Origin: Candidatus Omnitrophota bacterium
GTDB lineage: Bacteria; Omnitrophota; Gorgyraeia; Gygaellales; Profunditerraquicolaceae
Direction of reading: 5' to 3'
DNA: 64,000 nt
Assembly (NCBI GenBank): GCA_043823435.1
Contig: JBDRAV010000016.1
Location: forward strand, 1,122 to 65,121
The position numbers and the translations under genes were made by a program. Position 1 is the first letter of the stretch. The number at the start of each line of letters is the position of its first letter. The notes beneath the pieces were generated by a model. The model was given only the letters and a program-made list of their open reading frames with translations, was not told where the DNA came from and did not search any database. Shown in pieces: positions 2,299 to 45,249 of the stretch.

Positions 2299-3769
2299 GA
2301 GAAATAATATAGAATTAAACAAGTTAACCGCACATGAGCTTATCGAGAAGATAAAATCAGGAGCAACCAAGCCCGGGGAGATAGTTAGTTCGTTAAAAAG
2401 AAGAATTAAGGATATAGACCATAAAATTAATGCCTACGTACGACATCTTGACTCTGAAGCCCTAGATTCCCAACTCCCAGCTTCCAGCTCCAATCTATAT
2501 TTAAAAGGCATACCTGTCTCTATCAAAGATAATATTTGCACTAAAGGTTATAATACCGAATGCTGCTCTAAGATCCTGGAGGGGTTTAATCCGCCGTACG
2601 ATGCCACAGTAATCAGGAAATTAAAAGAATCTGGTGCGACCGTATTCCCGGTAAAGACCAATATGGATGAGTTTGCCTTTGGTTCATCAACGGAGAATTC
2701 CCGCTATGGCCCGACACATAACCCCTGGGATTTAGAGACTGTTGCAGGTGGTTCTTCTGGAGGTTCGGCATCGGCAGTAGCTTCAGATGAGGCGATAATG
2801 GCCTTGGGTTCGGATACGGGCGGCTCTATCCGTCAACCTGCATCTTTCTGTGGCGTGGTCGGGCTTAAGCCTACTTATGGGAGGGTTTCACGTTATGGGT
2901 TGATTGCATTCGCCTCAAGCCTGGACCAGATCGGTCCCCTCACCAAAGATGTCAGGGATAGCGCGATCTTAATGAATGTCATTTCCGGATACGACCACTA
3001 TGATTCTACTTCCGTAAATATTGATGTGCCGGATTATACCGCATCATTGGGGGCGGATATCAAGGGATTAAAGATCGGCACTCCAAAGGAATATTTTATT
3101 GCTGGTATGGATAAAGAAGTCAAGATAATAGTGGAGGAAGCTATAGATAAACTAAAGAGCCTGGGAGCCGAGCATAAACCGGTTTCATTGCCGAATACCC
3201 GGCATGCAATACCGGTTTATTATGTTGTTGCTACGGCAGAGGCGAGCTCCAATTTAGCGCGCTTTGACGGAGTGCAGTATGGTTTTAGAACCGAGAGCCG
3301 AGAGCCGAGAACCGAGAACCGAGTGATAGATATGTATAAAGGGACACGCGGAGAAGGGTTTGGGCAGGAAGCCAAAAGAAGGATTATTCTTGGAACATTC
3401 GCTTTATCGCACGGATATTACGACGCATATTATCTGCGGGCTCTAAAAGTAAGGACCATGATAAAGCAGGATTTTGACAGGGCCTTTACAAAATTTGATT
3501 GTTTGGTTACCCCTACGTCCCCTACGCCCGCATTTAAAATAGGTGAAAAAGCAAAAGATCCCTTAGAGATGTACCTTTCGGATATATATACCATATCAGC
3601 GAATCTATCGGGGATACCGGCGATATCCGTACCCTGCGGTTTTACCAGTAAGGGGCTGCCGGTAGGATTGCAGATTCTGGCGAAGCCGTTTAACGAAGGA
3701 TTGTTGTTCAAGGCCGCTTATGCATATGAACAAAGCACGGAGTGGCATAAGATGAGCCCCAAATTATAA
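2297..3769 (+). CDS. gatA: Asp/Glu-tRNA amidotransferase subunit A (amidase family)
   Basis: 490 aa. Amidase signature GGSSGGSASAVAS..GSDTGGSIRQPASFCG. Lies between gatC and gatB. Contains two heptamer arrays (2468-2495, 3288-3322). Confidence 0.96.
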   Translation: MRNNIELNKLTAHELIEKIKSGATKPGEIVSSLKRRIKDIDHKINAYVRHLDSEALDSQLPASSSNLYLKGIPVSIKDNICTKGYNTECCSKILEGFNPPYDATVIRKLKESGATVFPVKTNMDEFAFGSSTENSRYGPTHNPWDLETVAGGSSGGSASAVASDEAIMALGSDTGGSIRQPASFCGVVGLKPTYGRVSRYGLIAFASSLDQIGPLTKDVRDSAILMNVISGYDHYDSTSVNIDVPDYTASLGADIKGLKIGTPKEYFIAGMDKEVKIIVEEAIDKLKSLGAEHKPVSLPNTRHAIPVYYVVATAEASSNLARFDGVQYGFRTESREPRTENRVIDMYKGTRGEGFGQEAKRRIILGTFALSHGYYDAYYLRALKVRTMIKQDFDRAFTKFDCLVTPTSPTPAFKIGEKAKDPLEMYLSDIYTISANLSGIPAISVPCGFTSKGLPVGLQILAKPFNEGLLFKAAYAYEQSTEWHKMSPKL

Positions 3770-12214: not shown

Positions 12215-12394
12215 GGGCGTCTTTATTATTAAAACAGAGATGATTCTAATCCAAAGCAGGGACGACTTTGTTGCCAAAGAAAAGGGTGTCCCTTTTAAGA
12301 TTTTATTTTTAGGGGACACCTTTCGGATTGACAGAAGAAACGGCTTTCCTTTTAGATTCAAAGGCGTCCCCCGATTGAATTTAAAGACGTCCCT
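12213..12394 (+). repeat. AGGGAC...GTCCCT-bounded composite element, copy R1 (182 nt)
   Basis: AGGGGCGTCTTTA (12213-12225, overlapping the acsC TAG stop), GGGACGACTTT (12259-12269), AAAGGGTGTCCC (12281-12292), GGGGACACCTTT (12312-12323), AAAGGCGTCCCC (12360-12371), TAAAGACGTCCCT (12382-12394). The boxes can pair as three nested helices. Confidence 0.8.
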
Positions 12395-17444: not shown

Positions 17445-17521
17445 GGCGGAGTAGCTCAGCCTGATAGAGCACGCGGCTCATACCCGCTTGGTCGGTGGTT
17501 TAAATCCACTCTCCGCCACCA
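17445..17521 (+). tRNA. tRNA with CAU anticodon (elongator Met, or Ile2 if lysidine-modified). CCA is encoded.
   Basis: Cloverleaf read by hand. Acceptor GGCGGAG/CTCCGCC, D arm GCTC-AGCCTGATA-GAGC, anticodon arm CGCGG-CTCATAC-CCGCT, T arm GGTGG-TTTAAAT-CCACT, 3' ACCA. Lacks initiator features. The T loop has T at position 56 and the D loop has A at 19. Confidence 0.85.
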
Positions 17522-26541: not shown

Positions 26542-26614
26542 GCCGGCGTAGCTCAGTCGGTAGAGCAGCTGTTTTGTAAACAGCGGGTCGGGGGTTCAAT
26601 TCCTCTCGCCGGCT
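26542..26614 (+). tRNA. tRNA-Thr (UGU). CCA is not encoded.
   Basis: Acceptor GCCGGCG/CGCCGGC, anticodon arm GCTGT-TTTGTAA-ACAGC, T loop TTCAATT. Confidence 0.9.
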
Positions 26615-26743: not shown

Positions 26744-26826
26744 GGGTAGGTACCCAAGTGGCCAAAGGGGGCAGACTGTAAATCTGCTGCGCTTGCGCTT
26801 CAGAGGTTCGAATCCTCTCCTGCCCA
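26744..26826 (+). tRNA. tRNA-Tyr (GUA), long variable arm. CCA is not encoded.
   Basis: Acceptor GGGTAGG/CCTGCCC, anticodon loop CTGTAAA, long extra arm typical of bacterial tRNA-Tyr. Confidence 0.9.
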
Positions 26827-34935: not shown

Positions 34936-35098
34936 AGGGACGTCTTTATTACCAAAGCAAAGGGTGTCCCAGATTCAAAGCAAAGGCTGTCCCCTCTTAA
35001 TATGGGCACCCTTATGATTGACGCAAGAAACCACTTCCCCTGCCGGCAGGCAGTGATTGGGTCAGAGGACGTCCCCTGATTGATTTAAAGGCGTCCCT
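34936..35098 (+). repeat. AGGGAC...GTCCCT-bounded composite element, copy R2 (163 nt)
   Basis: AGGGACGTCTTTA (34936-34948), AAAGGGTGTCCC (34959-34970), AAAGGCTGTCCCC (34982-34994), GGGCACCCTT (35004-35013), CCCCTGCCGGCAGGCAG (35037-35053), GGACGTCCCC (35067-35076), AAAGGCGTCCCT (35087-35098). Colinear with R1. Confidence 0.8.
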
Positions 35099-37913: not shown

Positions 37914-37971
37914 GGGACACTTCTTGACCCAATCAAGGGACACTTCTCCGGCCAATCGGAGAAGTGTCCCC
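37913..37971 (+). repeat. AGGGACACTTCT-type element (59 nt) with a perfect 13-bp hairpin
   Basis: GGGACACTTCT at 37914 and again at 37937 (23 nt apart). GGGACACTTCTCC (37937-37949), loop GGCCAATC, GGAGAAGTGTCCC (37958-37970). The first A is the last base of the lysC TAA stop. Confidence 0.85.
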
Positions 37972-39571: not shown

Positions 39572-42289
39572 ATGAATGATATCCCGACCCGCTATAACTC
39601 CAAAGATACCGAAGATAAATGGTATAAATTCTGGGAAGAGAATAATCTATTTTCCGCAAAAGTAGACCCTTCTAAAAAGCCTTTTTGCATCGTTATCCCT
39701 CCTCCGAACGTAACCGGAATACTGCATATGGGACATGCCCTGAACAACACGATTCAGGATATCCTTATTAGGTATCACCGTATGAAAGGGGAGGAATCTC
39801 TCTGGATGCCGGGTACCGACCACGCCGGTATAGCGACCCAGAATGTGGTAGAGAAATCTATCGCCAAGGAAGGTTTAAAACGCCAGAACCTGGGGAGAGG
39901 AAAGTTCATTGAAAAAGTCTGGTGGTGGAAGGAGGAATACGGCTCCACCATTATCCGTCAGTTAAAGAAGTTGGGCGCTTCCTGTGACTGGCAGAGGACG
40001 CGCTTTACGATGGATGCAGAGTATTCCGAATCCGTGACAGAGGTGTTCGTCAGGCTTTATGAAAGAGGCCTTATCTACAGGGGAAGCTATATTATTAACT
40101 GGTGCCCGCGCTGCCAGACGGCCTTAGCGGATGAAGAAGCTCCACATCACGAATTGCAGGGTAATCTGTATTATTTGCGCTATCCTGTAAAAGGTCGGCT
40201 CCCCGAAGAAGCAGACTTTTATATCGTCGTAGCTACTACCCGCCCGGAAACTATGTTAGGCGATACTGCGGTTGCGGTCAATCCCAAAGACAAAAGGTAC
40301 AAGAAGCTTATTGGTAAGACCATCATTCTGCCTTTAGTCAACAGAGAGATAAAGATAATTTCCGATAGTATGGTAGATATGAAATTCGGCACCGGAGCGG
40401 TAAAGGTAACCCCGGCGCATGACCCTAACGACTACGCGTTAGGCAGAAAGCACAAACTGGAATTTGTGAATATTATGCGCCCGGACGGATGCCTGAATGA
40501 AAATTCCGGGGATTACAGCGGCATGGACAGGTTTGAGGCAAGGGAGGTCGTGCTTGAAGACCTAAAAGACAAGGGTTTATTGGAAAAAGTAGAACCGCAT
40601 GGTTTATCCGCGGGGCACTGTTACCGTTGCCATACTATTATTGAGCCGTATTTATCCGAGCAGTGGTTTATAAAGATGAAGCCGTTGGCTAGGCCGGCAA
40701 TAGAGGCAGTTAAGAAAGGCAGGATCAAATTCCACCCGAAACGCTGGACAAAGGTCTATCTTAACTGGATGGAGAATATTCAGGATTGGTGCATCTCCCG
40801 CCAGATATGGTGGGGGCATCGCATCCCTGTATATTATTGTAATAATTGTCACAAGAAGGGTCAGACCCCTTCGGGGACAGATCCTAACAAGAGTAGGGTT
40901 ATTGTTTCTAAAATTAAACCGGAAAAATGCCCTCGCTGCGGCTCAAACGATATCTATCAGGATGAAGACGTATTGGATACCTGGTTTTCCTCGTGGCTGT
41001 GGCCGTTTGCGACTTTCTATTGGCCAGCACAGCAGGGTCAGTCCCCTTCGGGGACAGACCCTGACAAGGACCTGAAATATTTCTACCCAACTTCAGTTTT
41101 AGTAACTGCCCCAGAGATAATCTTCTTCTGGGTCGCCCGCATGATCATGGCAGGGCTTGAATTTATGCACGATATTCCTTTTAAAGATGTCTATATCCAC
41201 GGCACCGTGCGTGATATCGAAGGCAAGAAGATGTCCAAGTCCTTAGGCAATATAATCGACCCCCTTGATATTATAAACGAATACGGGGCGGATGCGCTGC
41301 GTTTCAGCCTGATCTCCATAACCGCACAGGGTCAGGACGTATTCCTATCACAAGAGAGATTCGAACAGGGCAGGAACTTTGCGAATAAGATCTGGAATGC
41401 TTCAAGATTTGTTTTGATGAATCTGGAACCTTCCAATATAAACACGGACCTGTGTGTATTCTTCAAGAATGAGGACCTGGATATAGTCAACCGCTGGATA
41501 TTGAGCAGATTTTATTCGACCCTGAAGGAGGTCGGGAAGAAGCTCGATCTTTATAAATTCAACGAAGCGGCAAATATACTTTATGGGTTCTTCTGGCATG
41601 AGTTTTGCGATTGGTATCTGGAGGTAATCAAGCCCGACATAAAGAAGAAACACAATCAGGTTGTAATGTATAAGGTCCTGGAGAAGTTTTTGAGGATATC
41701 GCACCCCTTTATGCCTTTTGTAACCGAAGAGCTCTGGCACAAGCTTGACGAGAATAAAGGCTCTATCATGCTGGAACCGTGGCCGCATCTGCAGGAGGAT
41801 TTGATCGATAAAAAAGCAGAGTCAAAGATGGCCGGCATCTTTGAGGCGATCTCTACTATCAGAATGATGCGTTCGGAATTAAAGATACCTCCTCAAAACA
41901 GGATCAATGCAGAGATATTCGTAAAGAACAAAGCGAGGAAAGACCTGATTTTATCCATGGAGCCGCTTATTATGGGCATGTCCAGGCTTGAATCGTTGAT
42001 CATCAAGCAAGACTATGCTCCCCTTAAAACCCAGTACGTAAGAATATTGAAGGAGATGACAATAGTCATTCCGCTTTCGGGCATAATAGACGCCGATAAA
42101 CTGAAGAAAGACAAAGAAGACGAGATAAAGAAGACGGAATCAGAGATAAAAGCCAAGAAAAATATCCTTTCTAACGAGAACTTTGTAAAGAAAGCTCCCA
42201 GGGAGGTAGTAGAGAATGAAGAATTAAGGCTGCAAGAACTCAATAAAACGTTAATAGAACTGAAAGGAATCAGAGATGGTCTCAAATAA
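39572..42289 (+). CDS. valS: Valine-tRNA ligase
   Basis: 905 aa. HMGH (HIGH variant), KMSKS, QDEDVLDTWFSS, C-terminal coiled coil. Carries two in-frame 39-nt repeat insertions. Confidence 0.97.
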   Translation: MNDIPTRYNSKDTEDKWYKFWEENNLFSAKVDPSKKPFCIVIPPPNVTGILHMGHALNNTIQDILIRYHRMKGEESLWMPGTDHAGIATQNVVEKSIAKEGLKRQNLGRGKFIEKVWWWKEEYGSTIIRQLKKLGASCDWQRTRFTMDAEYSESVTEVFVRLYERGLIYRGSYIINWCPRCQTALADEEAPHHELQGNLYYLRYPVKGRLPEEADFYIVVATTRPETMLGDTAVAVNPKDKRYKKLIGKTIILPLVNREIKIISDSMVDMKFGTGAVKVTPAHDPNDYALGRKHKLEFVNIMRPDGCLNENSGDYSGMDRFEAREVVLEDLKDKGLLEKVEPHGLSAGHCYRCHTIIEPYLSEQWFIKMKPLARPAIEAVKKGRIKFHPKRWTKVYLNWMENIQDWCISRQIWWGHRIPVYYCNNCHKKGQTPSGTDPNKSRVIVSKIKPEKCPRCGSNDIYQDEDVLDTWFSSWLWPFATFYWPAQQGQSPSGTDPDKDLKYFYPTSVLVTAPEIIFFWVARMIMAGLEFMHDIPFKDVYIHGTVRDIEGKKMSKSLGNIIDPLDIINEYGADALRFSLISITAQGQDVFLSQERFEQGRNFANKIWNASRFVLMNLEPSNINTDLCVFFKNEDLDIVNRWILSRFYSTLKEVGKKLDLYKFNEAANILYGFFWHEFCDWYLEVIKPDIKKKHNQVVMYKVLEKFLRISHPFMPFVTEELWHKLDENKGSIMLEPWPHLQEDLIDKKAESKMAGIFEAISTIRMMRSELKIPPQNRINAEIFVKNKARKDLILSMEPLIMGMSRLESLIIKQDYAPLKTQYVRILKEMTIVIPLSGIIDADKLKKDKEDEIKKTESEIKAKKNILSNENFVKKAPREVVENEELRLQELNKTLIELKGIRDGLK
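40853..40891 (+). repeat. In-frame 39-nt hairpin-forming repeat in valS, copy 1 (KKGQTPSGTDPNK)
   Basis: AAGAAGGGTCAGACCCCTTCGGGGACAGATCCTAACAAG. The palindromic core is at 40858-40884. Confidence 0.85.
41030..41068 (+). repeat. In-frame 39-nt hairpin-forming repeat in valS, copy 2 (QQGQSPSGTDPDK)
   Basis: CAGCAGGGTCAGTCCCCTTCGGGGACAGACCCTGACAAG. The core at 41035-41061 is a 27-nt palindrome with one mismatch (12-bp stem, loop TTC). It starts exactly 177 nt (59 codons) after copy 1. Confidence 0.88.
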
Positions 42290-43161: not shown

Positions 43162-45147
43162 GTGGAAAAATTCAAGTTAGTCTCTGATTATAAGCCTTGC
43201 GGCGACCAGCCCAGGGCGATAAAAGAGCTATCTGGCTCGATTGGGTCGGGTAATAAGCACCAGACTCTGCTCGGCGTGACCGGATCCGGGAAGACCTTTA
43301 CTCTGGCCAATGTTATCGCCAGGATAAACCACCCTACACTGGTTATCTCCCATAATAAAACCCTGGCCGCGCAACTCTATTCGGAATTCAGGGAATTCTT
43401 CCCGCATAACGCCGTAGAATATTTTGTCAGTTATTACGATTATTATCAGCCCGAGGCATATATACCTTCAACAGATATATACATAGAAAAGGACGCTTCT
43501 ATTAACGACAGGCTGGACCGCCTGCGTCTTTCTGCGACCACTTCGCTTATGTCACGCCGCGATTGTCTTATTGTGGCTTCTGTGTCTTGCATATATAATC
43601 TTGGTTCACCGGACGAATACCGCGATTTACTTGTTCTTGTTGAAAAAGGGGAGTCTGTGTCGCGCGATAACTTGATATCAGGACTTGTTAAAATACAATA
43701 TGAGAGGAACGATTACGAGTTTATCCGCGGGAGGATAAGGGTCAGGGGCGATGTCGTAGAAATATTTCCTTCGTATGAAGAGGTCGCGCTGCGTCTAGAG
43801 CTTTTCGGAGATAAGGTAGAGAAGATATCGCAGATAAACCCTGTTTCGGGAGAAGTCCTGAATTCCCTGGATAGGATAGCGATATATCCGGCCAAACATT
43901 TTATATTCTCAGGAGAGGGGCTTGGCAGAGCGCTTAAGTCTATCGGGCAGGAGTTAGAAGAGAGGCTGAATATCTTAAGGGGTAAGAATAAATTATTGGA
44001 GGCCGAGCGCCTTGAATCCCGCACTAAATATGATATGGAGATGCTTAAAGAGATAGGCTATTGCCATGGTATCGAGAATTATTCGCGGCACCTTTCAGGC
44101 AGACCTCAAGGCTCAAGGCCGTATTGCCTCATTGATTATTTCCCGGATGATTTTCTCGTGGTAGTCGACGAGTCTCACGTAACCTTGCCTCAAATAAGGG
44201 GCATGTATGAAGGTGACCGCGCCAGGAAAGAGGTGTTAGTAGAATACGGATTCAGACTCCCCTCATGCCTCGATAACCGGCCTTTGAAGTTTGAAGAATT
44301 CAGGGACATAGTAAAACAGCAGGTATTCGTTTCCGCAACGCCCGATGAATACGAGATAAAAAATAGCCAGGGTCTTGTCATTGAGCAGATTATCCGGCCT
44401 ACCGGCCTGGTTGACCCTAAAATTATAATCAAGCCATCCGATGGCCAGATCGAAGACTTGATTAAAGAAGTAAAGAAGCGTGCCCGACGAAATGAGCGCG
44501 TCCTTATCACGACTTTAACTAAAAAATTGGCCGAAGACTTAAGTGTCTATTTACAGGAGAAGGGATTAAAGGTAAAATATTTACACTCCGAGGTAGAGAC
44601 TATTGAACGTTCAAGGATTCTCAGAGAATTAAGGCGTAAAGAATTTGATTGCTTAGTGGGAATAAATCTGTTAAGGGAGGGCCTGGACCTGCCCGAAGTT
44701 TCCCTTGTCGCAATATTGGACGCAGATAAGGAAGGTTTCTTGAGATCCGCTACTTCGCTGATACAGGTATCCGGGCGTGTAGCGCGCAATATAAACGGGA
44801 CCGTGATCATGTATGCCGATACCGTAACTGGCTCAATGAAGAAGGCAATCGCCGAAAGCGAAAGGAGAAGGGATAGGCAGTTCGATTTTAACAGGAAAAA
44901 TAAGATTACGCCGCGGTCTATTAAGAAGAGCATAAAACATGGGATAGAGGATTTAGAAGGAGCGCAGGAATTTGTGGCAGATTTAACCGGCCAGGATAAA
45001 GATGAATATGAATTAAGCAGGTATATTTCGGAACTAGAATACGAGATGGAACTTGCAGCGAGGAACCTGCAGTTTGAGAAAGCAGCGGTAATCCGCGATA
45101 AGATAAGAGACCTAAAACCGATCAACAGTAACAGGGACACTTCTTGA
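43162..45147 (+). CDS. uvrB: Excinuclease ABC subunit B
   Basis: 661 aa. [13 protein letters not shown]-terminal UVR domain ([11 protein letters not shown]). GTG start. The last four codons and the TGA stop lie inside the repeat at 45133. Confidence 0.97.
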
Positions 45148-45249
45148 CCCAAAGTAAGAAGTGTCCCCTAGAAGGTAATCTTAAGTAAATGGGGACATTT
45201 CTCCGATTAGCATGAGAAGTGTCCCTCGATTGGGACGAGAAGTGTCCCT
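45133..45249 (+). repeat. AGGGACACTTCT-type element (117 nt) with three hairpin units
   Basis: GGGACACTTCT (45134-45144) / AGAAGTGTCCC (45157-45167). GGGACATTTCTC (45192-45203) / GAGAAGTGTCCC (45214-45225), with one G-U pair on the plus-strand transcript. GGGAC (45232-45236) / GAGAAGTGTCCCT (45237-45249). The first 20 nt are identical to 37913-37932. Confidence 0.85.

What the first reader, a model, noticed from the sequence alone, without database searches (positions are those of the whole stretch)
40853..41068. Two in-frame copies of a 39-nt hairpin-forming unit inside valS
AAGAAGGGTCAGACCCCTTCGGGGACAGATCCTAACAAG (KKGQTPSGTDPNK) and CAGCAGGGTCAGTCCCCTTCGGGGACAGACCCTGACAAG (QQGQSPSGTDPDK) start exactly 177 nt (59 codons) apart.
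- The core of copy 2 is a 27-nt palindrome with a single mismatch (stem GGGTC-GTCCCC / GGGGAC-GACCC, loop TTC).
- It uses the same GTCCC/GGGAC words as the intergenic elements.
- Both copies fall between conserved ValRS blocks. Copy 1 lies between WWGHRIP and the CPRCG/QDEDVLDTWFSS block. Copy 2 lies between WPF and FYPTSVLVT. From my memory of ValRS alignments, only short variable linkers occur at these positions.
The established precedent for palindromic repeats inserted in frame into essential genes is the Rickettsia palindromic elements. I am not aware of this having been described for this element type.
Basis: partly seen in the sequence, partly recalled or inferred. Interest (0 to 1): 0.78.

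Follow-up and report, generated by a model that had tools for sequence, protein, structure and literature searches.

The report
Hairpin repeat copies inserted inside valS
The essential valyl-tRNA synthetase gene of this Omnitrophota bacterium carries in-frame copies of a 27-base hairpin repeat related to repeats that flank REP-type (RAYT-like) transposase genes; this kind of insertion is already known, but the repeat family and its concentration in one gene are new.

Summary
Two 39-nt units, 34/39 identical and 177 nt apart, lie in frame in valS (39572-42289). A third, decayed copy lies at 40193-40219. Empty sites in close relatives show that copy 1 is a 36-nt insertion and copy 2 a clean 27-nt insertion, into loops that are short in Thermus ValRS.

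The unit belongs to a widespread hairpin family, GGGACAGTCCCC-NNN-GGGGACAGTCCC, found in Omnitrophota and many other phyla. Its GGGGAC...GTCCCC "foot" is shared by the repeats that bracket a clade of RAYT-like Y1 transposase genes, including ones in Omnitrophota, and by the window's own intergenic repeats.

Across 120 Omnitrophota ValRS orthologues the hairpin occupies five loop hotspots. It is always read in one phase, G(Q/L)SPxGT(V/D)P. Its presence is patchy on the ValRS tree, and its nucleotide sequence is conserved beyond what the peptide requires.

Best reading: a REP-type palindromic element inserted in frame into permissive loops, like Rickettsia RPEs and the intragenic REPs described in 2013. 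It is a new member of a known kind. The strong valS hotspot, the single reading phase and the sequence conservation remain unexplained.

The parts
39572..42289 (+). valS (valine--tRNA ligase, 905 aa), the host gene
   Evidence: ORF. E 2e-228 to T. thermophilus ValRS 1GAX. 100% identical to a Candidatus Omnitrophota MAG protein.
40193..40219 (+). Site 0: decayed 27-nt hairpin remnant (GGT CGG CTC CCC GAA GAA GCA GAC TTT = G208-F216), in the first beta-hairpin loop of the CP1 editing domain
   Evidence: Relatives carry intact short or long-loop hairpins at the same codon position, and P0004 has none. Its alignment score to a reverse-orientation unit is reached by 0 of 5000 shuffles. It is too decayed for the covariance model.
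40853..40891 (+). The hairpin core is 40858-40884. The inserted 36 nt are about 40859-40894 (G430-S441), between the two CxxC pairs of the zinc knuckle
   Evidence: 23.9 bits. Absent from P0004, present in P0003, and decayed in P0002.
41030..41068 (+). The 14-bp-stem hairpin is 41033-41063. The inserted 27 nt are 41036-41062 (G489-P497), between WP and DLKYFYPTS
   Evidence: 47.4 bits. Absent from P0002, P0003 and P0004. The 27 nt are identical in P0006 and P0079.
37937..37970 (.). Intergenic hairpin GGGACACTTCTCC...GGAGAAGTGTCCC. It belongs to a different repeat family that shares the GGGAC...GTCCC foot. Further copies: 12259-12292, 34937-34970, 45134-45167, 45192-45225, 45232-45248
   Evidence: It resembles hairpins that bracket RAYT-like genes in L155 and L158. 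These elements are the weak next-best matches of model R1. Relatedness to the valS unit is inferred from the foot only.

Best explanation
The units are copies of a short REP-type palindromic repeat: a 27-31-nt hairpin, AGGG(A/T)CAGTCCCC-NNN-GGGGACAG(T/A)CCCT. They were inserted into the valS coding sequence at loops that tolerate extra residues, and they are now translated as G-Q-S/T-P-S-G-T-D-P.

Shown here:
- They are insertions relative to close relatives.
- The same hairpin family is dispersed in genic and intergenic DNA of Omnitrophota and other phyla.
- Its stem covaries.
- Hairpins with the same GGGGAC...GTCCCC foot bracket RAYT-like Y1 (HUH) transposase genes in inverted orientation.
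- Omnitrophota encode that transposase clade.

Inferred:
- Copies are made in trans by such a transposase acting on single-stranded hairpin DNA, as for E. coli TnpA-REP and the IS200/IS605 family.
- Only insertions of 3n length, in surface loops, and in the one phase that gives a Gly/Pro/Ser/Thr-rich peptide without Cys or Arg survive selection.
- Old copies then decay (site 0, copy 1), while others stay intact through recency, gene conversion or selection.
For: Insertion status:
- Against empty sites, site 2 is a clean 27-nt insertion and site 1 a 36-nt insertion.
- Site 0 carries an insert in relatives.
- 1GAX has gaps at these positions.

Dispersal:
21 of those loci are Omnitrophota.
- In Omnitrophota the hairpin also lies in a MiaB-like gene, an epimerase/dehydratase, an aconitase small-subunit-like gene, an RHS protein, a recombinase and giant proteins. 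In a Planctomycetia genome it lies in SecA.
- REPIN-like doublets and clusters occur.

Hairpin as the unit:
- Stem pair 3 is A-T in 128 copies and T-A in 14, never A-A or T-T (P 1e-19).

Transposase link:
- The Y1_Tnp genes in L037 and L089 are bracketed by hairpin doublets in opposite orientation.
- Among 80 metagenomic homologues, foot-bearing hairpins occur at 0.71/kb next to the gene against 0.08/kb farther away. In 13 loci they lie on both sides, and L197/L178 use the valS GGGGTCAG variant.
- The best PDB hit is E. coli TnpA-REP 4ER8, and the best NCBIfam model is REP-associated tyrosine transposase.
- Omnitrophota homologues are bracketed by GGGGACAGGCTAC/GTAGCCTGTCCCC and sit in conserved synteny after a comM-like gene.

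Tolerance:
- The canonical unit has no stop in any of its six frames.
- The inserts sit in coil, low-confidence segments of the model.

Precedent:
- Intragenic REPs, including in aaRS genes and twice per ORF (PMC3733652).
Against: - The window has no Y1 transposase gene and no intergenic copy of this hairpin, so mobility in this genome is not shown.
- The Omnitrophota transposase genes I fetched are flanked by a related but different repeat, which shares only the 8-nt foot.
- The GTAG tag of classical REPs is not conserved; only AG is.
- Only 17-25 of the 80 transposase homologues show foot-bearing flanks.
- Simple selfish insertion does not predict three things. All 14 significant copies in 188 kb lie in valS. 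55 of 55 ValRS inserts share one reading phase. The 27 nt are identical in lineages whose synonymous sites are about 50% diverged.
- Transposition by this clade has never been demonstrated.
Confidence: 0.7

Rival explanations
1. Exapted structural element. The hairpins came from the same repeat family, but in valS they are kept by selection for a nucleic-acid-level role. Candidates are mRNA hairpins that pause ribosomes at domain boundaries or stabilise the transcript, or DNA/RNA sites bound by the RAYT-like or another protein. They would then not be merely tolerated passengers.
For: - The hairpin codons are identical at 9/9 positions in three lineages, whereas only about 50% of identical-amino-acid codons match elsewhere in valS (P about 0.002 per pair).
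- The orthologous long-loop insert at site 0 keeps its arms while its loop diverges. Stem pair 3 is T-A in P0003 and A-T in P0006.
- All 14 significant copies in 188 kb are in valS.
- In copy 1 the synonymous GAC>GAT change gives a G.U pair on the sense strand only, and the sense strand folds better.
- The five sites lie in loops near domain junctions.
Against: - Copies decay freely: site 0 and copy 1 in the window, and site 1 in P0002.
- About a third of the orthologues lack an insert at any given site, and the closest relatives lack site 2.
- The same hairpin sits in unrelated genes and in intergenic DNA.
- Conservation could equally reflect recent re-insertion or gene conversion from genomic copies.
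- No expression data are available.
Confidence: 0.2
2. Purely local event: copy 2 arose by intragenic duplication or gene conversion from copy 1, with no mobile element involved.
For: - Within the window the only copies are in valS.
- The two units share a few bases beyond the palindrome (..CCT(A/G)ACAAG) and the same GGTCAG/TTC subfamily.
Against: - The same 27 nt occur in other genes and genomes.
- The insertion at site 2 is exactly hairpin-sized.
- P0073 has a different subfamily at the same codon position, and P0006 has four different variants in one valS.
- Copies occur in both orientations.
Confidence: 0.04
3. Protein-level motif: G(Q/L)SPxGT(V/D)P is a functional peptide (for example a Ser/Thr-Pro phosphorylation or binding loop) that is selected repeatedly, and the palindromic DNA is a by-product.
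For: - The reading phase is uniform: 55/55 in ValRS and 9/10 in other long Omnitrophota ORFs.
- The peptide is conserved across orthologues.
Against: - Synonymous positions are conserved and stem pairs covary, which a peptide motif does not require.
- The same DNA is abundant in intergenic regions and around transposase genes.
- In GC-rich genomes the longest stop-free frames spanning the hairpin fall in all phases, but most of those frames are unverified as genes.
- Reverse-orientation copies give L where forward copies give Q, as the palindrome predicts.
Confidence: 0.04

Closest known systems
Intragenic REPs of the GTAG/CGTC palindromic repeat superfamilies (Di Nocera, De Gregorio & Rocco 2013, BMC Genomics 14:522, PMC3733652)
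   Same: Both are 20-40-nt imperfect palindromes. Both lie mostly outside genes, with a subset entirely inside ORFs and in frame. Both can occur twice in one ORF (O. terrae uvrA, R. conorii uvrB) and in tRNA synthetase genes, and the known ones include PVC-superphylum bacteria. GTAG REPs are linked to RAYT genes that they flank.
   Different: This stem sequence and its encoded peptides are not in that paper's text or supplements. The GTAG tag is reduced to AG. The stem is long (12-14 bp) with a fixed A.A mismatch. About half of the sampled Omnitrophota copies are intragenic. One gene family carries the element at five recurrent sites, in one reading phase.
Rickettsia palindromic elements (RPE; Ogata et al. 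2000, as cited in PMC3733652; other details from my own knowledge)
   Same: Both are palindromic repeats inserted in frame into functional, often essential genes. Both are translated, sit in surface-compatible positions, and are present or absent among orthologues.
   Different: RPE-1 type elements are much longer (about 100-150 bp, 30-50 aa) and specific to Rickettsia, with no known dedicated transposase. Here the unit is 27 nt (9 aa), spans many phyla, and is associated with a Y1 transposase clade. Sequence relatedness to RPEs was not tested.
REP/REPIN-RAYT systems (Bertels & Rainey 2011, PMC3116915; bioRxiv 10.1101/2021.07.10.451892; E. coli TnpA-REP structure 4ER8)
   Same: Both have a single-copy Y1 HUH transposase gene bracketed by its cognate hairpins in inverted orientation. 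Both show dispersed hairpin copies, doublets and conserved synteny of the transposase gene.
   Different: According to that preprint, RAYTs form five sequence groups found as single-copy chromosomal genes, and only Groups 2 and 3 are linked to REPINs. This clade is a distant relative: 4ER8 scores E 0.002, and NF047646 scores 70 bits, below its cut-off of 80. It occurs in Omnitrophota, Planctomycetota, Aminicenantes and others. Its group assignment was not determined.
IS200/IS605-family single-strand transposition (own knowledge)
   Same: Both involve Y1 HUH enzymes that recognise imperfect subterminal hairpins in ssDNA, and both insert next to a short specific sequence without target duplication. 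Here the junctions show a constant ..AG 5' flank and no target-site duplication.
   Different: The valS copies carry no transposase and consist of a hairpin only. No cleavage site or guide sequence was identified.

Membership tests
REP / REPIN-type repeats mobilised by RAYTs | Short (about 20-40 nt) imperfect palindrome able to form a hairpin | tested here: met
   A 27-31 nt unit with a 12-14 bp stem and one A.A mismatch. Stem covariation is 128 A-T: 14 T-A: 0 mismatched.
REP / REPIN-type repeats mobilised by RAYTs | Many dispersed copies within a genome | tested here: inconclusive
For this genome only 64 kb is available, and its only copies are the three in valS.
REP / REPIN-type repeats mobilised by RAYTs | Cognate Y1 (RAYT) transposase gene flanked by the repeat in inverted orientation | tested here: inconclusive
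   Met for the exact unit in L037, L089, L143, L148, L154 and L173, which are from other phyla or from unassigned contigs. Met for the shared foot in 17/80 homologues and in the Omnitrophota loci L207-L210. Not found in the window.
REP / REPIN-type repeats mobilised by RAYTs | Conserved 5' GTAG (or CGTC) tetranucleotide tag | tested here: not met
   Only AG is conserved 5' of the stem in Omnitrophota copies. GTAG is seen in a minority (L096, L025) and inside the Omnitrophota transposase-flanking repeat GTAGCCTGTCCCC.
REP / REPIN-type repeats mobilised by RAYTs | Predominantly extragenic location | tested here: not met
   About 10 of 22 sampled Omnitrophota copies lie inside long ORFs. In the valS loci, all copies are intragenic.
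REP / REPIN-type repeats mobilised by RAYTs | Transposase binds and cleaves the hairpin; copies are generated in trans | not testable with these tools
   This needs biochemistry or a transposition assay.
RAYT (REP-associated tyrosine transposase, NCBIfam NF047646) | Score at or above the curated family cut-off | tested here: not met
   70.3 and 67.6 bits against a cut-off of 80. It is still the only and best family hit. Pfam Y1_Tnp is met at 54-55 bits against a cut-off of 23.
Rickettsia palindromic elements (RPE) | Membership of the Rickettsia RPE sequence families (about 100-150 bp consensus) | not tested
   The length (27 nt) and the host phylum differ, so only the in-frame palindromic insertion behaviour is shared. 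No RPE sequences were available for alignment.
In-frame (protein-coding) palindromic insertions in general | Extra segment relative to orthologues, length 3n, no stop codon, host gene intact and conserved | tested here: met
   27-nt and 36-nt insertions against empty sites. The ORF is intact at 905 aa, with all catalytic blocks and four invariant Cys.

The most novel reading that the evidence does not exclude
In Omnitrophota the valS hairpins are not passive passengers. They are a maintained, phase-locked set of nucleic-acid structures at five loop or domain-junction positions of an essential gene. The REP-type repeat would have been co-opted, for example as co-translational pause sites, as mRNA-stability elements, or as a protected reservoir of master copies for the RAYT-like system. 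That would explain the extreme valS hotspot, the single reading phase and the synonymous-site conservation.
Probability: 0.15. Interest if true: 0.75.

Novelty: new member of a known kind. Interest (0 to 1): 0.55.

Why it matters
The finding extends protein-coding palindromic repeats, known from Rickettsia RPEs and proteobacterial or Verrucomicrobial intragenic REPs, to Omnitrophota. It also defines a hairpin family, GGGACAGTCCCC-NNN-GGGGACAGTCCC, that I did not find in the searched literature. The family spans many phyla and is tied by its foot to a large, distant RAYT-like transposase clade.

There are three practical consequences:
- Length variation in Omnitrophota ValRS (874-980 aa) comes largely from repeat-derived loops. 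Alignments, phylogenomic markers and annotation should treat these loops as insertions.
- Contigs may tend to break at these repeats.
- The five recurrent sites map loops of ValRS that tolerate 9-30 extra residues.

Conceptually, the valS hotspot, the strict reading phase and the nucleotide-level conservation offer a tractable case. It can be used to ask whether selfish hairpins inside essential genes are merely filtered by selection or are put to use.

Tried and rejected
- **Local duplication only.** Rejected, because the same unit occurs in other genes and genomes, and different subfamilies occupy the same site.
- **Two independent 11-bp palindromic protein-binding sites (GGGACAGTCCC x2).** Rejected in favour of one long hairpin. 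In the T-A variant each 11-mer loses self-complementarity while the long stem stays paired.
- **Same family as the window's intergenic repeats.** Only the GGGAC/GTCCC foot is shared. The interiors differ, and model R1 scores them at E>1.
- **Universal neighbouring gene.** All-vs-all clustering of ORFs near 119 loci gave no common neighbour. Only 2 loci had an adjacent Y1 transposase.
- **Exact 11-mer next to transposase homologues.** Present in only 5 of 80, so I had to generalise to the foot.
- **Known RNA family.** Rfam found only tRNAs in the window.
- **Literature.** A raw-sequence search, 'Omnitrophota + palindromic' and 'Omnitrophota + transposase/repeats' gave nothing relevant. The peptide signatures are absent from the supplements of PMC3733652.
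- **Phage vector.** Only 3 pattern hits in IMG/VR.
- **AlphaFold2 model of ValRS.** Only moderate (mean pLDDT 73.5), and low confidence is not specific to the inserts, so I used it only as weak support.
- **Polarity of gain versus loss at site 2.** Parsimony on an NJ tree gave 17 changes for 25 carriers, and the P0003 linker fits either a pre-insertion site or a precise 27-nt excision. Unresolved.
- **comM and the transposase in the window.** Absent, so the expected transposase locus of this genome could not be examined.
Full report
**Observation**

The ORF 39572..42289(+) encodes a 905-aa valine--tRNA ligase. It matches T. thermophilus ValRS 1GAX at E 2e-228 and is 100% identical to a protein of a Candidatus Omnitrophota MAG.

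- Unit 1 (40853-40891, KKGQTPSGTDPNK) and unit 2 (41030-41068, QQGQSPSGTDPDK) are in frame, start 177 nt apart, and share 34/39 nt.
- The 27-nt core matches only these two places in the window, against 0 expected in shuffles.
- Copy 2 is a 14-bp stem with a single A.A mismatch (41033-41063). It is the strongest GC-rich hairpin in coding DNA of the window, at -24.9 kcal/mol, z -4.4.
- Copy 1 has lost two pairs (-14.0 kcal/mol, z -2.0).

**Are they insertions?**

Yes, on three lines of evidence.

- Against Thermus ValRS, both places are gaps.
- In an alignment of 120 Omnitrophota ValRS (68-100% identity, 874-980 aa), both places are hypervariable in length. About a third of the sequences have only a minimal linker.
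- Codon alignments with the three closest relatives, which share cimA-valS-nadC-uvrB synteny, show empty sites.
  - Site 2: the window has AQQ[GQSPSGTDP]DKDLK where P0003 has VQKGEDLK. This is a clean 27-nt difference, essentially the hairpin itself.
  - Site 1: there are 36 extra nt relative to P0004 (CQDKGVIV). They are shared with P0003 and are decayed in P0002.
- Copy 1 lies between the two invariant CxxC pairs of the zinc knuckle, and copy 2 lies between WP and DLKYFYPTS.
- An AlphaFold2 model (mean pLDDT 73.5, only moderate) places residues 210-212, 431-440 and 488-492 in low-confidence coil between secondary-structure elements.

**A third copy, and five hotspots**

Comparing the window with its relatives revealed a third site.

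- At G208-F216 (40193-40219) the window has GGT CGG CTC CCC GAA GAA GCA GAC TTT.
- At the same position P0003, P0002, P0006 and P0079 have the same arms with 24 extra nt in the loop.
- P0073 and P0109 have a short reverse-orientation unit there, and P0004 has none.
- The window segment aligns to the reverse unit better than any of 5000 shuffles.

Across the 120 orthologues, hairpin-type peptides occur at five positions, near reference residues 208, 426, 488, 616 and 728. There are 41 short and 14 long-loop inserts, and every one is read as G(Q/L)SPxGT(V/D)P. None is in the other two phases, although the canonical unit has no stop codon in any of its six frames. Presence at site 2 is scattered on an NJ tree: 17 parsimony changes for 25 carriers, against a shuffled mean of 22.9. 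So gains and/or precise losses have been frequent.

**What the unit is**

- The consensus is (A/G)GGGACAGTCCCC-NNN-GGGGACAGTCCC(T/C).
- It occurs in Omnitrophota (21 loci), Planctomycetota, Aminicenantes/Acidobacteriota, Actinomycetota, Gammaproteobacteria, Oxalobacteraceae, Myxococcaceae, Anaerolineae and others.
- It is often found in tandem or inverted pairs.
- The valS copies are the GGTCAG...ACAGACC variant.
- At the one stem pair the pattern left free, 128 copies are A-T, 14 are T-A, and none is A-A or T-T (P 1e-19). The long hairpin is therefore the conserved object. The A.A mismatch is present in 127 of 147 copies.
- In Omnitrophota, about half of the sampled copies lie in long ORFs: a MiaB-like enzyme, an NAD epimerase/dehydratase, an aconitase small-subunit-like protein, an RHS protein, a recombinase and giant proteins. 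Nine of ten are in the same phase as in ValRS.
- In a Planctomycetia genome the hairpin is in frame in SecA.
- The pattern is rare in viral contigs, with 3 hits. Rfam has no matching family.

**Link to a transposase**

- Two loci, L037 (Planctomycetota) and L089 (Aminicenantes), have a Pfam Y1_Tnp gene bracketed by hairpin doublets in opposite orientation.
- The closest solved structure is E. coli TnpA-REP (4ER8). The only NCBIfam hit is REP-associated tyrosine transposase, at 70 bits against a cut-off of 80.
- Of 80 metagenomic homologues, 5 are flanked by the exact 11-mer. Many others are flanked by longer hairpins that all begin GGGGAC(A) and end (T)GTCCCC but differ inside.
- By a strict count, 17 loci have such flanks, 13 of them on both sides. 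The density is 0.71/kb beside the gene against 0.08/kb farther away.
- L197 and L178 use the valS GGGGTCAG variant.
- L155 and L158 resemble the window's intergenic repeats (GGGACACTTCTCC...GGAGAAGTGTCCC at 37937-37970, and others).
- Omnitrophota encode this clade (P0255, P0257, P0275). The genes are bracketed by GGGGACAGGCTAC / GTAGCCTGTCCCC. In two genomes they sit directly after a comM-like gene, as expected of single-copy, vertically inherited RAYTs.
- The window contains neither comM nor a Y1 gene.

**Conservation**

- At site 2 the 27 nt are identical in the window, P0006 and P0079. P0006 and P0079 are 74% and 69% identical to the window's ValRS by BLASTP, or 76% and 73% over aligned columns.
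- Elsewhere in valS only about 50% of identical-amino-acid codons use the same codon (P about 0.002 per pair).
- P0073 carries the other subfamily (GGACAG, TGC loop) at the same codon position.
- P0006 has four different variants in one valS.
- In the orthologous long-loop insert at site 0 the loop has diverged while the arms persist. Stem pair 3 is T-A in P0003 and A-T in P0006.

**Hotspot**

Covariance model R1, built from 37 diverse copies, finds only the two valS copies in the 64-kb window. In 124 kb of orthologous valS loci and transposase loci it finds 12 copies, all inside valS and none in about 105 kb of flanks. I chose some of those orthologues because they carry inserts, so the figure is biased. 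Even so, the absence of copies from the flanks and from the window's other 61 kb is striking. No other window ORF encodes a hairpin-type peptide.

**Interpretation**

The best-supported reading is a REP-type palindromic element of a RAYT-like system, inserted in frame into permissive ValRS loops. Selection then filters for 3n length, loop location and the one benign reading phase. The other phases introduce Cys or Arg/Leu.

- Shown: insertion status, family membership of the hairpin, its association with the transposase clade through identical units or the shared foot, and the presence of that clade in Omnitrophota.
- Inferred: mobilisation in trans, and the selective filter.
- Not explained: the valS hotspot, the strictness of the phase, and the nucleotide-level conservation. 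These keep open a reading in which the hairpins are maintained for a nucleic-acid-level role.

**Comparison with what is known**

In-frame palindromic repeats are established.

- Rickettsia RPEs are one example.
- Intragenic GTAG/CGTC REPs are another. Reported cases include tRNA synthetase genes, double insertions in one ORF, and the PVC bacterium Opitutus terrae (PMC3733652).
- That paper's text and supplements contain neither this stem nor its peptides. I found nothing on Omnitrophota in the held literature.
- The classical GTAG tag and the extragenic bias are not met here, and the transposase falls below the curated RAYT cut-off.

I therefore file this as working like a REP/RAYT system with intragenic copies, and as a new member of that known kind rather than a member of any catalogued REP family.

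**Verdict**

The finding is real and richer than reported, but the phenomenon is not new in kind. Interest is 0.55. Confidence in the main explanation is 0.7.

Noticed in passing
window 12259-12292, 34937-34970, 37914-37970, 45134-45167, 45192-45249; 23-nt units at 12348-12393 and 35075-35097: An intergenic repeat family of 34-nt hairpins (GGGAC-N24-GTCCC) and 23-nt units ending in GTCCC, clustered between genes (for example upstream of cimA and downstream of uvrB). They resemble hairpins that bracket RAYT-like transposase genes in metagenomes (L155, L158).
   Followed up: partly
window 32830-32860 (ORF 31876-32985, PALP-family enzyme): A (GCTCCAA)x4 heptanucleotide tandem repeat lies in frame and encodes SKLQAPSSK. 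It is absent from the relative L122. The same SKLQAP-type peptides occur as loop inserts in other Omnitrophota ValRS (P0047, P0076, P0096).
   Followed up: partly
L126:1705-4584 (P0109 valS, site 1) and many other orthologues: Other palindrome-derived insert families use the same ValRS loops. An example is GAGTTCATAGTTCATAGT...ACTACGAACTACGAACTA, read as EFIVHS...TTNYELRT. The hairpin studied here is therefore only one of several repeat families colonising these sites.
   Followed up: no
L207/L208:10001-10660 and L210:1820-2491: Omnitrophota RAYT-like genes lie immediately downstream of a ComM/Mg-chelatase-like gene in two different genomes. They are bracketed by GGGGACAGGCTAC / GTAGCCTGTCCCC inverted repeats.
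   Followed up: partly
L075:2225-5224 (Planctomycetia): The canonical hairpin lies in frame within SecA (..IREDQGQSPAGTVPDEDALK..), another essential gene in another phylum.
   Followed up: no
L010 about 3482-3506 and L038 about 920-944: The hairpin, with similar flanks, sits just downstream of rplK (ribosomal protein L11) in both a Planctomycetales and an Omnitrophota genome.
   Followed up: no
L122:21993-22721 onward: The dnaE gene of the close relative carries intein domains (Intein_splicing, LAGLIDADG_3), according to the precomputed Pfam hits.
   Followed up: no
window 17445-17518, 26542-26614, 26744-26826, 27161-27231, 29691-29765: There are five tRNA genes. AT-rich perfect hairpins (for example 26824-26858 and 27232-27299) lie next to the tRNA cluster.
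   Followed up: no
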